Assembly (NCBI RefSeq): GCF_050320075.1
Contig: NZ_CP190018.1
Strand: one strand, 5' to 3'
From: Escherichia coli
Lineage (GTDB): Bacteria; Pseudomonadota; Gammaproteobacteria; Enterobacterales; Enterobacteriaceae
DNA: 64,000 bases
The first letter of the stretch is position 1. Every line of letters begins with the position of its first letter. A program made the translations under genes and the position numbers. The notes beneath the pieces are model-generated. The model did no database searches. It was not told the origin of the DNA and was given only the letters and a program-made list of their open reading frames with translations. Of this stretch, positions 59,906 to 62,087 are shown piece by piece.

Positions 59906-61432
59906 TCAAAAATAAACCTCACCATCAACCATATATTTGAGAGTACTTATCGCCTGCTGGGCGGATATTATTTTCATTAAAGGATAGTGTTTAAAAACAA
60001 TGCCATTCATAAAATAGATATCACAGGTTTTATTATCTGTATTGATTATGATTTTTTCGAATGTTTTATAGGCAAGTGTACGACATAGCTCTCGCCCATT
60101 TTTACTGGTTAAGTCAATAGCATGAAAATCACCAAGTGAACTCACCGCTTTACTCTTCAAAGTTTTTAATGATACAGAAGCCCTTCGTAATTCCTTATCT
60201 AATACTCTGATTTTTTCTGCTATAGCGGTAACTTCAGGCGCAACAGATAATGCAGCAATTAAATTATTAATTTTCATCTGGAGCTCAATAATTTTCAACT
60301 CTAAAGTTTCATTAGCATCTTTCTTGTTTTCAACTGGTTGGATTTTACTACAATTAAAAAGCAACTCATTAATGATATTATAATCAACCAAATCTCTCTT
60401 TATTGATGGCCTGTCACATCGATGCAGTCTTCTCATCGGACAAACATAATAGCCATGCAAACTTCCAGATACCGCATGAACAATCATGGTATTACCACAA
60501 GCCTCGCACTTCATAACTGTTCGAAGTAGATTTATCAACATAGGATTTTTGCTACTATTGCTAATACCAAAAGGTGCCAACCGAATTTCCTGCACAGCGT
60601 AAAACAAATCATCTGATATGACTCTGGGATAATAGCCAGCGATTTCACTTATTCCTTTACCTCTTGCACGATATGAAGGTACGCATATACCTATCAGAGC
60701 TTTATTCGCTAATAATTTTTCAATTACAGAAGGTCCCCATGCACTTTCTTTTCCTGAGAAATTCTTTACAGCATGATCATTTAAATACTTGGCTATTGCA
60801 TTCAATGAGCGCCTTTCCATCCTGAGTTTAAAAATTAGCTCAATAGTTTTCACCCTGTCGGGGTCTGGAACAAAAGCCGTTCTTTTGTCATCCAATGAGA
60901 GCCATCTCGGACAAGACGCCGTCATAATCGTGCCTGACTCCAGTGCATCCTGCCGTTTTTTCTTCCATGATAATTTAACCCGACTTGACTTTATCTCGCT
61001 TTCTTCATTTGCCCTTTGTGCTATAAGTATGGCTTTTATTAATGAATATGGCTCATTCAATGAGTCAATATTATAGACTGTATTATCGCAAAGAGTTATA
61101 ACATCAATACCGTGATTCAAAATCAATTTCAGACGCTCAATCGCTTCACCGACTTTTTCTCTTGAAAGTCTGTCCAGACTTTCAACTAACAATGTAGTCC
61201 CTGGCAATATATAACCATGTTCTATAGCATCTAAAAATTCCGAAAAAGCTCCTGATTGTGCATGCTTTCCATTGAATGCGCTTAACCCCAAATCTTCATA
61301 CGTTACGGTATCAAGGTAATAATCACTATTTACCTTTAGCCATTCAGTAATAAGCCTTCTCTGGCGGTTTAATGAATCACCAGACATCTGACCTGGTGAT
61401 GAAAATCGCATATATGCTATGGCTTTTTTCAT
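59906..61432 (-). CDS. ybcK: large serine recombinase (YbcK-like)
   Basis: 508 aa; N-terminal resolvase/invertase catalytic domain (MKKAIAYMRFSSPGQ...SLNRQ), central recombinase domain and Cys-rich zinc-ribbon region (CEACGN...CPMRRLHRC). Confidence 0.88.
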   Translation of the reverse strand: MKKAIAYMRFSSPGQMSGDSLNRQRRLITEWLKVNSDYYLDTVTYEDLGLSAFNGKHAQSGAFSEFLDAIEHGYILPGTTLLVESLDRLSREKVGEAIERLKLILNHGIDVITLCDNTVYNIDSLNEPYSLIKAILIAQRANEESEIKSSRVKLSWKKKRQDALESGTIMTASCPRWLSLDDKRTAFVPDPDRVKTIELIFKLRMERRSLNAIAKYLNDHAVKNFSGKESAWGPSVIEKLLANKALIGICVPSYRARGKGISEIAGYYPRVISDDLFYAVQEIRLAPFGISNSSKNPMLINLLRTVMKCEACGNTMIVHAVSGSLHGYYVCPMRRLHRCDRPSIKRDLVDYNIINELLFNCSKIQPVENKKDANETLELKIIELQMKINNLIAALSVAPEVTAIAEKIRVLDKELRRASVSLKTLKSKAVSSLGDFHAIDLTSKNGRELCRTLAYKTFEKIIINTDNKTCDIYFMNGIVFKHYPLMKIISAQQAISTLKYMVDGEVYF

Positions 61433-61687
61433 GGTGACACCTGCTAAAGTATGCTTTTATAAACCTTAGTGGTGAGATATGATTTTTGTTTAATTTTTAT
61501 TTAAAAAGACAATTAAGGTCACATTATCTTGAATATACAACAATAATCGTATTGCAATTTTCTTACACCATAATCTTGAAAGCACAAAAGAATGAATAAA
61601 AACTAAAGACATTAACAAAAAGCATAAAACGAGGCCCATATAAATATACGAACCTCCATATTTTAGTCGTTTAAAAACAAATTATTT

Positions 61688-62020
61688 TTAATGTGGCGTG
61701 CTTCGTGACAATAAATTAATAACCAACACACCGGCACAAATCAACATCATGCCTATAATGGCTGGCAGGTCCAATCGTTGGCCGAAAAATCCCCATGATA
61801 GTAAGCTAATCAGGACAATACCGACTCCTGACCAGATAGCATAAGCAATCCCTGTAGGAATATAAGCCAGCGTCTGAGCTAATAACCAGAATGATGCACA
61901 ATAACAAATAATTGTACCAACAGATGGCCATAACCGTGTAAAACCTTCTGAAAACTTCATTAAGGTTGTACCAATGACCTCTGCAAGTATTGCACCACCA
62001 AGATAAATATAAGGATTCAT
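61688..62020 (-). CDS. emrE: small multidrug resistance (SMR) efflux transporter EmrE
   Basis: ORF 61688..62074; 110-aa product from MNPYIYLGGAILAEVIGTTLMKFSEGFTRLWPSVGTIICYCASFWLLAQTLAYIPTGIAYAIWSGVGIVLISLLSWGFFGQRLD matches EmrE including Glu14. Confidence 0.93.
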   Translation of the reverse strand: MNPYIYLGGAILAEVIGTTLMKFSEGFTRLWPSVGTIICYCASFWLLAQTLAYIPTGIAYAIWSGVGIVLISLLSWGFFGQRLDLPAIIGMMLICAGVLVINLLSRSTPH

Positions 62021-62087
62021 AGCATATTCTTTCCTGTTCAAACTGGAGAGAATTGTACTACAGTTTGAACTCAACTCACCTGTTTCA

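What the first reader, a model, noticed from the sequence alone, without database searches (positions are those of the whole stretch)
59906..62074. Serine recombinase plus EmrE efflux pump embedded in the prophage early region
A 508-aa large serine recombinase (ybcK-like) and the SMR transporter emrE sit between ren and the nin genes, the same arrangement as in the cryptic prophage DLP12. This module looks conserved across lambdoid prophages. It may be the footprint of a smaller integrative element that inserted into an ancestral phage, and the recombinase could still mediate inversion or excision of an adjacent segment.
Basis: partly seen in the sequence, partly recalled or inferred. Interest (0 to 1): 0.4.

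Follow-up and report, generated by a model that had tools for sequence, protein, structure and literature searches.

The report
Orphan serine recombinase beside emrE in prophage
An intact large serine recombinase gene (ybcK) and the drug-efflux gene emrE sit together in a known accessory-gene slot of an E. coli lambda-like prophage, as in K-12's DLP12; it is a common, already annotated arrangement, and I found no recombination sites or rearranged variants that show what the recombinase acts on.

Summary
A truncated rha gene, a 169-aa ORF and ybcN/ninE/ybcO/rusA/Q follow.

The low-GC block occurs in 1,398 of 5,426 complete E. coli genomes, in 12 sequenced phages and in 80 of 80 sampled IMG/VR contigs. 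Order and orientation are always the same.

YbcK is a complete large serine recombinase. All three Pfam domains pass their cut-offs, R9/S11/D87/R88/R91 and four zinc cysteines are invariant, and the predicted fold matches solved serine integrases. It is under strong purifying selection (dN/dS 0.05-0.08; 42 of 43 haplotypes intact).

The "module" is composite. emrE occurs without ybcK in about 2,300 genomes (next to fliE) and in a rare prophage type. Outside E. coli, relatives of the recombinase never travel with emrE.

No flanking repeats exceed chance, and the flanks are the most variable part of the locus. No inverted variant was seen.

Best reading: two independent accessory cassettes in the ren-ninB swap site of lambdoid phages. 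One is an orphan, probably active recombinase with an unknown target. The arrangement is already known; interest is low to moderate.

The parts
62088..62390 (-). ren. The last ~10 codons (62088-62124) are a variant tail that travels with the emrE block.
   Evidence: Homology to the module-free phage PhiR26_1 stops at 62124.
62021..62087 (-). ren-emrE intergenic region. It holds a perfect 10-bp inverted repeat (62061-62070 / 62036-62045, 15-nt loop) and a TACAAT hexamer. Candidate emrE promoter/operator.
   Evidence: Sequence read. It is the least variable stretch of the locus (pi 0.010). It is conserved in the fliE-locus emrE copy. No Rfam match.
61688..62020 (-). emrE, a 110-aa SMR efflux transporter. 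It is a separable cassette spanning about 61680-62097.
   Evidence: NCBIfam EmrE 240.6 bits against a cut-off of 226. Pfam PF00893. Present alone at about 92% identity in about 2,300 genomes. dN/dS 0.01-0.08.
61671..61691 (.). AT-rich near-palindrome (TTAAAAATAA-T-TTGTTTTTAA) overlapping the emrE stop codon. This is where the emrE-only loci and the emrE-ylcJ-ybcK loci diverge.
   Evidence: It lies in the most variable intergenic stretch (pi 0.076), so it is a junction and not a demonstrated site.
61631..61656 (-). Terminator-like hairpin followed by a T-run just after emrE. It overlaps the ylcJ start.
   Evidence: A Rho-dependent terminator (tybcK) was mapped in the untranslated region upstream of ybcK in K-12 (PMC4150792).
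61490..61639 (-). ylcJ, a 49-aa ORF (Pfam YlcJ-like). Its variation does not look like that of a constrained coding frame.
   Evidence: PF23688 E 1.9e-30. 0 synonymous against 5-6 nonsynonymous differences to K-12. Diversity by codon position 0.061/0.034/0.021. Absent near all non-E. coli relatives of the recombinase.
59906..61432 (-). ybcK, a 508-aa large serine recombinase. It has a catalytic domain (nucleophile Ser11), a recombinase domain, a zinc ribbon with coiled coil, and an extra C-terminal alpha/beta domain.
59830..59905 (-). 76-bp tail after ybcK that is shared, though poorly conserved, by all E. coli variants. Downstream of it the variants differ.
   Evidence: pi 0.076.
59471..59800 (-). 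Remnant of an rha/antirepressor gene. Only the P22AR C-terminal half is left, with an internal stop.
   Evidence: Pfam PF10548. Annotated as a pseudogene in NZ_CP123240. The intact gene is present in PhiR26_1.
58727..59236 (-). 169-aa ORF of unknown function. It is the cargo specific to this downstream variant.
   Evidence: no family match. Present in PhiR26_1 and in 12 of 80 IMG/VR loci.
58077..58532 (-). ybcN (NinB-like). This is the conserved right anchor of the variable interval. Homology among all variants resumes at about 58715.

Best explanation
The 2.3-kb low-GC block (about 59830-62124) is accessory cargo in the ren-ninB interval, a slot in which lambdoid phages carry alternative cargoes. 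It is made of two independent cassettes.

(1) emrE with its own conserved upstream control region and a terminator. It is an ordinary SMR efflux pump expressed from the lysogen.

(2) The ylcJ leader plus ybcK, a single-gene cassette that encodes a complete and probably catalytically competent large serine recombinase. Its lineage also occurs at the tail-distal, host-adjacent ends of other enterobacterial prophages, where its members are candidate integrases.

In this prophage, which carries its own tyrosine integrase and excisionase, ybcK is an orphan with no recognisable att sites beside it. The block moves between phages passively, by homologous recombination in the conserved flanking genes (P/ren on one side, ylcH/ybcN on the other) and by illegitimate joins downstream of ybcK.

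Inferred, not shown: in the lysogen ybcK is largely silenced by the terminator and Rho site upstream of it, and it is read through as a delayed-early gene of the PR operon during lytic growth. The protein would then cut and rejoin two roughly 40-50-bp sites through Ser11, as other large serine recombinases do. Those sites lie somewhere other than the immediate flanks.
For: Identity and architecture. Invariant R9, S11, D87, R88, R91 and C309, C312, C331, C339 across 18 homologues of 42-61% identity. AF2 model with mean pLDDT 78.9. Full-length Foldseek matches to serine integrase complexes, PhiC31, Bxb1 and the Listeria LSR (E 1e-18 to 1e-10).

Selection: dN/dS 0.05-0.08. Diversity by codon position 0.012/0.004/0.052, and 42 of 43 haplotypes intact.

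Swap site: the same ren...ybcN interval holds PD-lambda-1 plus an intact rha in PhiR26_1, ybcL-ybcM in K-12 and PhiR34_1, an alpha/beta hydrolase in Perceval and Rb-50, and nothing in O157:H7. Five downstream types occur among 80 IMG/VR loci.

Composite nature: emrE alone lies next to fliE, with ybcL-ybcM, in about 2,300 genomes, and as ren-emrE-hydrolase in Rb-50. No emrE, ylcJ or ren homologue lies near the recombinase in 22 loci from other genera. Between the Atlantibacter prophage-end and nin-region copies, only the gene plus a 68-bp leader is shared.

Own integrase: the prophage has a tyrosine integrase and excisionase next to ybhC. DLP12 uses intD at argU and the O157 prophage uses an integrase at icd, so the host phages integrate by other enzymes at different sites.

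Silencing: Rho-dependent terminator upstream of ybcK in K-12 (PMC4150792), and a terminator-like hairpin at 61631-61656.
Against: No substrate sites were found, so catalytic activity is inferred only from sequence conservation.

Strong purifying selection on an orphan recombinase needs a function, and I cannot name it.

The left edge of the ylcJ-ybcK unit falls at the same point, the AT-rich palindrome at the emrE stop, in comparisons with two different emrE-only contexts. In Perceval-type phages the unit is flanked by an imperfect direct repeat of about 35 bp of the emrE 3' end. A site-specific origin would also produce this pattern.

The role of family members at prophage ends (integrase or cargo) was not settled.
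Confidence: 0.6

Rival explanations
1. ylcJ-ybcK (with a short tail) is, or recently was, a mini integrative element mobilised by its own recombinase. It inserted at the AT-rich palindrome overlapping the emrE stop codon and can still excise. The rare emrE-only prophages would then be excision products.
For: The left junction is identical in K-12, Perceval, O157 and window types, and it coincides with the centre of a near-palindrome. In Perceval the 2,073-bp insert is bracketed by repeats of about 35-38 bp that share a 15-bp identical core, CATTAAAAATAATTT. Strain Rb-50 has exactly the single-copy 'empty' form. In an Atlantibacter-type phage the recombinase block is flanked by a 229-bp, 82%-identical direct repeat of the target gene's 5' end.
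Against: The right ends differ between K-12, Perceval, O157 and this window, and the sequences next to the putative core are unrelated. One recombinase would have to recognise dissimilar arms.

The Perceval right joint is explained equally well by an unequal crossover between an rha remnant and the 3' end of a second emrE copy (GTCAC microhomology).

The O157 type is a plain 225-bp deletion between CTATC microhomologies.

The putative site lies in the most variable stretch of the locus (pi 0.076). The empty form is found in only 2 of 5,426 genomes. ybcK is never seen away from ren-emrE. This window has no second copy of the motif.
Confidence: 0.15
2. YbcK is a working second integrase, or a trans-acting recombinase. 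Expressed early after infection, it would recombine a phage or foreign site with a chromosomal site far from the gene. This could give the phage an alternative integration route, or it could mobilise or block another element.
For: Strong purifying selection in phages that already have a tyrosine integrase. Inducible, plaque-forming phages keep it. It lies in the PR delayed-early operon. Relatives sit next to host DNA at prophage ends: 0.5 kb from ssrA, 0.6 kb from tRNA-Ser and upstream of lepA.
Against: All E. coli prophages examined sit at the site of their own tyrosine integrase (ybhC, argU, icd). No prophage was seen split at or near ybcK. No candidate site was identified, and no recombination directionality factor is evident.
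Confidence: 0.15
3. YbcK is a DNA invertase that flips an adjacent segment to switch expression of emrE or the downstream cargo.
For: It belongs to the serine recombinase superfamily. A perfect 10-bp inverted repeat lies upstream of emrE.
Against: It is a 508-aa large serine recombinase, not a ~190-aa Hin/Gin-type invertase. The 10-bp arms are only 15 bp apart and also occur at the ybcK-free fliE locus. No inverted repeat pair above chance brackets any segment. 80 of 80 loci have one orientation.
Confidence: 0.03
4. ybcK is a decaying fossil integrase with no present function.
For: No sites were found. The gene is silenced by Rho in K-12 (PMC4150792). The neighbouring rha gene is a pseudogene, and the flanks are decaying.
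Against: dN/dS 0.05-0.08. 42 of 43 haplotypes are intact. Variation is biased to third codon positions. The catalytic and zinc residues are invariant at 42-61% identity.
Confidence: 0.05

Closest known systems
DLP12 cryptic prophage of E. coli K-12 (renD-emrE-ylcJ-ybcK-ybcL-ybcM-ylcH-ybcN)
   Same: Same gene order and orientation. The block is 96% identical in nucleotide sequence from ren to 39-76 bp past ybcK.
   Different: DLP12's ren is split by IS3. Its cargo after ybcK is ybcL-ybcM rather than the rha remnant plus the 169-aa ORF. DLP12 sits at argU and is defective. This prophage sits beside ybhC and looks much more complete.
Inducible lambdoid phages Perceval (Bievrevirus), 4A7, Lambda_4C10, 1W, 3W, D2, Turner, PhiR34_1, PhiR47_2
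   Same: They carry ren-emrE-ylcJ-ybcK at 96-97% identity. Perceval's record already annotates the gene as a large serine recombinase homologous to YbcK.
   Different: The downstream cargo differs: an alpha/beta hydrolase in Perceval, ybcL-ybcM in PhiR34_1.
Large serine recombinases / serine integrases (PhiC31, Bxb1, TP901-1, Listeria A118-type; also TnpX, XisF, SpoIVCA)
   Same: Same three-domain architecture, catalytic residues, zinc ribbon with coiled coil, and predicted fold.
   Different: Sequence identity is only 14-20% to solved members, and phmmer finds no PDB hit. There is an extra C-terminal alpha/beta domain (residues about 444-507). No att sites or directionality factor are known. 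The host phage has its own tyrosine integrase.
Lambdoid 'moron'/accessory slots in the nin region (for example PD-lambda-1 in phage PhiR26_1)
   Same: Same position between ren and ninB/ybcN, variable content between otherwise collinear phages, and atypical GC.
   Different: The cargo here is an efflux pump plus a recombinase, not a recognised defence system (no PADLOC match).

Membership tests
Large serine recombinase (serine integrase) family | N-terminal resolvase-type catalytic domain with the serine nucleophile and the conserved Arg/Asp/Arg residues | tested here: met
   PF00239 at 68.5 bits against a cut-off of 23.3. R9, S11, D87, R88 and R91 are invariant in 18 homologues.
Large serine recombinase (serine integrase) family | Recombinase domain followed by a zinc ribbon domain with an embedded coiled coil | tested here: met
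   PF07508 at 53.9 bits and PF13408 at 32.9 bits, both above cut-off. Four invariant Cys. Long helices at 346-428 in the AF2 model.
Large serine recombinase (serine integrase) family | Fold similarity to solved family members over the full length | tested here: met
   Foldseek: 9dxd E 9.6e-19, PhiC31 2.3e-15, Bxb1 1.9e-14, 4kis 1e-10. TM-scores are low (0.2-0.4), as expected for a flexible multi-domain protein.
Large serine recombinase (serine integrase) family | A cognate pair of att sites that the enzyme recombines | tested here: inconclusive
   No repeat above chance flanks the gene. The flanks are hypervariable. One candidate junction palindrome lies at 61671-61691. Activity cannot be assayed with these tools.
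Self-mobilising integrative element nested in the prophage | Defined, constant ends found in more than one target context | tested here: not met
   The left edge is constant, but the right edges differ among four variants. The element is never found away from ren-emrE.
Self-mobilising integrative element nested in the prophage | Presence/absence polymorphism with a clean empty site | tested here: inconclusive
   Rb-50 is Perceval minus 2,073 bp between repeats of about 35 bp, but this form is seen in only 2 of 5,426 genomes. It is equally explained by unequal crossover or by deletion between the repeats.
Hin/Gin/Pin-type DNA inversion system | Small (~190 aa) serine invertase next to a segment bracketed by inverted repeats and found in both orientations | tested here: not met
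   The protein is 508 aa with LSR domains. There are no bracketing inverted repeats. Only one orientation occurs in 80 of 80 loci.
EmrE (SMR family efflux transporter) | Full-length match above the curated EmrE cut-off | tested here: met
   NF042984 at 240.6 bits against a cut-off of 226, over 1-110 of 110 residues. PF00893 E 2.1e-35.
Known anti-phage defence systems | Match to a PADLOC model | tested here: not met
   No hit for YbcK, EmrE, YlcJ, the 169-aa ORF or Ren.

The most novel reading that the evidence does not exclude
YbcK-family recombinases are single-gene cassettes (the gene plus a leader of about 70 bp) that move between the att-proximal end and the nin region of enterobacterial prophages. 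They are kept under strong purifying selection even in phages that have their own tyrosine integrase. That would point to a trans-acting, phage-beneficial site-specific recombination that has not been described. Candidates are a second integration route, capture or excision of cargo at the emrE-proximal palindrome, or action on a competing mobile element.
Probability: 0.2. Interest if true: 0.55.

Novelty: already known. Interest (0 to 1): 0.25.

Why it matters
emrE is a textbook multidrug transporter, and most of its E. coli copies are carried on prophage DNA. The analysis shows that emrE and the neighbouring recombinase are separable cassettes in a phage swap site, which clarifies how this resistance gene spreads: passively, with lambdoid phage modules, and not by its own integrative element.

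ybcK is a conserved, intact large serine recombinase of unknown target, present in about a quarter of complete E. coli genomes and in inducible phages. If its sites were found, it could add an enterobacterial enzyme to the serine-integrase toolbox and reveal a second recombination function in lambdoid phages. As it stands, the arrangement is already annotated and is not surprising to a specialist.

Tried and rejected
1. Flanking repeats. The repeat finder on 58600-62400 returned only short AT-rich matches at chance level. The best inverted pair, 16 nt with one mismatch at 59890-59905 and 61316-61331, has roughly 0.4 chance occurrences expected by my estimate, and it brackets the recombinase's own coding sequence.

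2. Structured RNA or riboswitch for emrE. No Rfam match at E <= 1.

3. Defence-system membership. No PADLOC match.

4. PDB match by sequence. None. The question was settled by a fold search instead.

5. The palindrome at the emrE stop as an att site. This looked attractive at first. It was downgraded for three reasons: the right-hand arms are unrelated in K-12 and Perceval, the region is the most variable of the locus, and microhomology joins explain the Perceval and O157 junctions.

6. My by-eye homology between the K-12 sequence downstream of ybcK and the rha remnant was not borne out by alignment.

7. A conserved non-coding motif next to the recombinase gene across genera. None was found apart from a 68-bp leader shared within the Atlantibacter group.

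8. Whether relatives at prophage ends are the prophage integrase. Positions are suggestive: next to ssrA, tRNA-Ser and lepA, with no tyrosine integrase in the 8-10 kb flanks. Related prophage ends lie next to different host DNA in different strains. The far ends of these prophages could not be fetched, so the question is unresolved.

9. The IMG/VR scan returned only E. coli-type copies. It was useful for population statistics but gave no new contexts.

10. Literature. No paper in the library assigns YbcK a recombination function. The only reports are Rho-dependent silencing (PMC4150792), an overexpression phenotype for sabinene tolerance (PMC7181518), and emrE amplification attributed to the flanking DLP12 IS3 (insEF3) elements (bioRxiv 10.1101/2022.12.20.521246).
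Full report
**Observation**

The region reads, on the minus strand, as follows:
- O (63085-63981)
- P (62387-63088)
- ren (62088-62390)
- emrE (61688-62020)
- ylcJ (61490-61639)
- ybcK (59906-61432)
- a truncated rha/antirepressor gene, of which only the P22AR C-terminal half is left (59471-59800)
- a 169-aa ORF (58727-59236)
- ylcH-like, then ybcN (58077-58532), ninE, ybcO, rusA, ylcG and Q

The real EmrE is 110 aa and matches the curated EmrE model end to end (240.6 bits, cut-off 226).

The window is 100% identical to E. coli NZ_CP123240 over all 14.8 kb that the fetched locus overlaps (window 49207-64000), apart from one ISCro1 insertion present in that genome. 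There the prophage lies beside ybhC and has its own tyrosine integrase and excisionase. K-12 DLP12 has the same renD-emrE-ylcJ-ybcK order.

**How common it is**

The block 59830-62124 is found at 80% coverage or more in 1,398 of 5,426 complete E. coli genomes. It is also in 12 phage records, including the inducible phages Perceval, 4A7, Lambda_4C10, 1W, 3W and PhiR34_1. Perceval's record already calls the gene a large serine recombinase homologous to YbcK.

All 80 IMG/VR loci returned for YbcK are E. coli-type. Every one that extends far enough shows the order P > ren > emrE > ylcJ > ybcK > ... > ybcN in a single orientation.

**The recombinase**

YbcK carries the three domains of a large serine recombinase, each above Pfam's cut-off. 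An alignment with 17 homologues of 42-61% identity shows R9, S11, D87, R88 and R91 invariant. These correspond to R8, S10, D67, R68 and R71 of gamma-delta resolvase; that correspondence rests on established knowledge of the family. The four zinc-ribbon cysteines are invariant too.

An AlphaFold model (mean pLDDT 78.9) shows the catalytic domain, the long E-helix, a helical recombinase domain, a zinc ribbon, a two-helix coiled coil (about 346-428) and an extra C-terminal alpha/beta domain. Foldseek aligns it over its full length to solved serine integrase complexes, PhiC31, Bxb1 and the Listeria LSR (E 1e-18 to 1e-10). phmmer alone finds no PDB relative, so it is a divergent member.

The gene is under strong purifying selection:
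- dN/dS is 0.05-0.08 against the Perceval and another allele.
- Among 43 distinct haplotypes, diversity by codon position is 0.012/0.004/0.052.
- 42 of those 43 haplotypes have an intact 508-codon frame.

It is therefore neither degenerate nor a fossil.

**The module is composite**

Four comparisons show this.

1. About 2,300 genomes carry only emrE (window 61680-62097, about 92% identity). In EC958 it lies next to fliE as emrE-ybcL-ybcM, which is the DLP12 arrangement minus ylcJ-ybcK and about 310 bp.
2. Strain Rb-50 has a lambdoid prophage with ren-emrE-hydrolase-ylcH-ybcN. That is phage Perceval minus ylcJ-ybcK and an rha fragment.
3. In 22 loci from other genera that encode YbcK relatives, no EmrE, YlcJ or Ren homologue is nearby.
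4. Between an Atlantibacter prophage-end copy and the Atlantibacter nin-region copies, the only shared DNA is the recombinase gene plus a 68-bp leader, at 77% identity.

The upstream control region of emrE, with its perfect 10-bp inverted repeat, is the most conserved stretch of the locus (pi 0.010). It also accompanies emrE at the fliE locus.

ylcJ shows 0 synonymous against 5-6 nonsynonymous differences to K-12. Its variation is lowest at third codon positions, and it overlaps a terminator-like hairpin. It behaves more like a leader/terminator region than a constrained coding frame.

**The interval is a swap site**

Between the conserved anchors, ren/P on one side and ylcH/ybcN on the other, related phages carry different cargo:
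- PD-lambda-1 plus an intact rha plus the 169-aa ORF (PhiR26_1)
- emrE-ylcJ-ybcK followed by ybcL-ybcM (K-12 and PhiR34_1)
- the same followed by an rha fragment and a hydrolase (Perceval)
- the same followed by the rha remnant and the 169-aa ORF (this window)
- the same followed by the rha remnant alone
- the same followed by nothing (O157:H7)

Breakpoints against this window are 62124 (inside the last codons of ren), 59867/59830, 59781, 59625 and 58715. The O157 type is a 225-bp deletion between CTATC microhomologies. The low GC of the block (0.32-0.40 against 0.50-0.56) marks it as acquired DNA.

**Is it a nested integrative element with sites?**

No direct or inverted repeat above chance brackets the block. 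The strongest hint of site-specific behaviour has three parts.
- ylcJ-ybcK begins at the same point in all variants, at the centre of an AT-rich near-palindrome overlapping the emrE stop codon (61671-61691).
- In Perceval the 2,073-bp insert is bracketed by imperfect repeats of about 35 bp of the emrE 3' end, which share a 15-bp identical core.
- Rb-50 has the single-copy form.

Against this reading:
- The right-hand arms next to that core are unrelated in K-12 and Perceval.
- The Perceval right joint can be read as an unequal crossover between the rha remnant and a second emrE copy at a GTCAC microhomology.
- The single-copy form occurs in only 2 of 5,426 genomes.
- This window has no second copy of the motif.
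- The emrE-ylcJ spacer and the DNA downstream of ybcK are the most variable parts of the locus (pi 0.076-0.098, above the 0.052 seen at ybcK third positions). That is the opposite of what conserved recombination sites would show.
- ybcK was never found away from ren-emrE.

I therefore rate the nested-element reading at about 0.15.

**Relatives elsewhere**

YbcK has full-length relatives of about 40-61% identity in Atlantibacter, Yersinia, Cedecea, Erwinia, Ewingella, Kluyvera, Citrobacter, Pantoea, Enterobacter and Lonsdalea. They occur in three contexts.

1. At the tail-distal end of prophages next to host DNA:
   - 0.5 kb from ssrA in Atlantibacter
   - 0.6 kb from tRNA-Ser in Enterobacter ludwigii
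   - upstream of lepA in Erwinia
   - 3.2 kb from argU in Cedecea
   - between two prophages in Yersinia

   No tyrosine integrase lies in the 8-10 kb flanks of any of these.
2. In the nin region of Atlantibacter-type lambdoid phages, next to KGG and DinI genes.
3. In a plasmid- or ICE-like region in Citrobacter koseri.

Recurrent neighbours are small ORFs of about 80 and 100-115 aa, plus UmuC, KGG and DinI. The end-of-prophage positions fit an integrase role, but I could not fetch the far ends of these prophages to prove it. Related prophage ends abut different host DNA in different strains.

**Mechanism: what is shown and what is inferred**

Shown:
- The gene is intact, conserved, and has LSR architecture and fold.
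- The block is composite.
- The interval is variable between related phages.
- Conserved flanking sites and orientation variants are absent.

From the literature: a Rho/NusG-dependent terminator in the untranslated region upstream of ybcK keeps it silent in K-12 (PMC4150792). The only phenotype reported is improved sabinene tolerance on overexpression (PMC7181518). emrE amplification under paraquat selection is attributed to the flanking DLP12 IS3 (insEF3) elements, not to the recombinase.

Inferred:
- ybcK is read through from PR as a delayed-early gene during lytic growth.
- The protein catalyses Ser11-dependent conservative recombination between two sites that are not in its immediate flanks.
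- The block spreads passively by recombination in the flanking conserved genes.

**Verdict**

It is wrong on the unit, because emrE is not part of it, and unsupported on sites, excision and inversion. The arrangement is already annotated in K-12 and in phage records. The residual interest is the unknown substrate of a widespread, selectively maintained orphan serine recombinase.

Noticed in passing
window 62021-62087 (arms 62061-62070 and 62036-62045): A perfect 10-bp inverted repeat with a 15-nt loop and a TACAAT hexamer lies just upstream of emrE. It is the least variable stretch of the whole locus (pi 0.010), and it is retained in the ybcK-free emrE copy next to fliE. It is a candidate emrE promoter/operator. 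There is no Rfam match.
   Followed up: partly
window 61490-61639: ylcJ (Pfam YlcJ-like, annotated as a protein in K-12) varies most at first codon positions and least at third (0.061/0.034/0.021). It shows 0 synonymous against 5-6 nonsynonymous differences to K-12. It overlaps a terminator-like hairpin (61631-61656). It may be constrained as RNA or terminator rather than as protein.
   Followed up: partly
L098 (E. coli EC958, NZ_HG941718 2105-2107 kb): About 2,300 complete E. coli genomes carry a second type of emrE locus next to fliE, arranged fliE | emrE-ybcL-ybcM | IS200. This looks like a decayed prophage nin-region remnant. emrE there is 92% identical, with dS 0.42 and dN 0.004 relative to the window copy.
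   Followed up: partly
L004 (phage PhiR26_1) 5083-7979: At the same position between ren and rha, this phage carries the defence gene annotated PD-lambda-1 on the opposite strand, plus an 89-bp duplicate of the ylcH-upstream sequence. So the interval also hosts defence cargo.
   Followed up: no
L010 7623-7851 and 10609-10831: In an Atlantibacter-type lambdoid contig, the recombinase-KGG-DinI block is flanked by a 229-bp direct repeat (82.5% identity) of the 5' end of the DUF1367 nin gene. This leaves a truncated copy upstream and a full copy downstream, which is the pattern expected of a Campbell-type insertion.
   Followed up: partly
L008, L013, L018, L019, L022, L095 around the recombinase gene: Small ORFs of about 80 aa and about 100-115 aa with no Pfam match recur beside YbcK relatives, often with a UmuC-like polymerase, KGG or DinI. 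They lie upstream in some loci and downstream in others.
   Followed up: no
L100 (O157:H7 F8952) between ybcK and ylcH: The O157 variant lacks 225 bp of the rha remnant through a deletion between two CTATC microhomologies. It has no cargo gene between ybcK and ylcH.
   Followed up: yes
L015 (MAG labelled Collinsella sp., JAIJJM010000263.1): A 4.2-kb contig binned as Collinsella carries ybcK at 99% identity to E. coli. It is almost certainly mis-binned E. coli prophage DNA.
   Followed up: no
window 55936-56445: An IS200/IS605-family transposase gene sits between Q and the lysis genes, where DLP12 has nmpC. In the otherwise identical genome NZ_CP123240 this IS200 is itself split by an ISCro1 (IS66-family) insertion.
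   Followed up: partly
L031, L032, L027 (Edaphovirga cremea): Two contigs end inside a YbcK-like gene at the same residue (149), and a third, 994-bp contig (L027) consists almost entirely of a partial copy of such a gene (residues 1-308). This suggests several near-identical copies of this recombinase in one genome.
   Followed up: no
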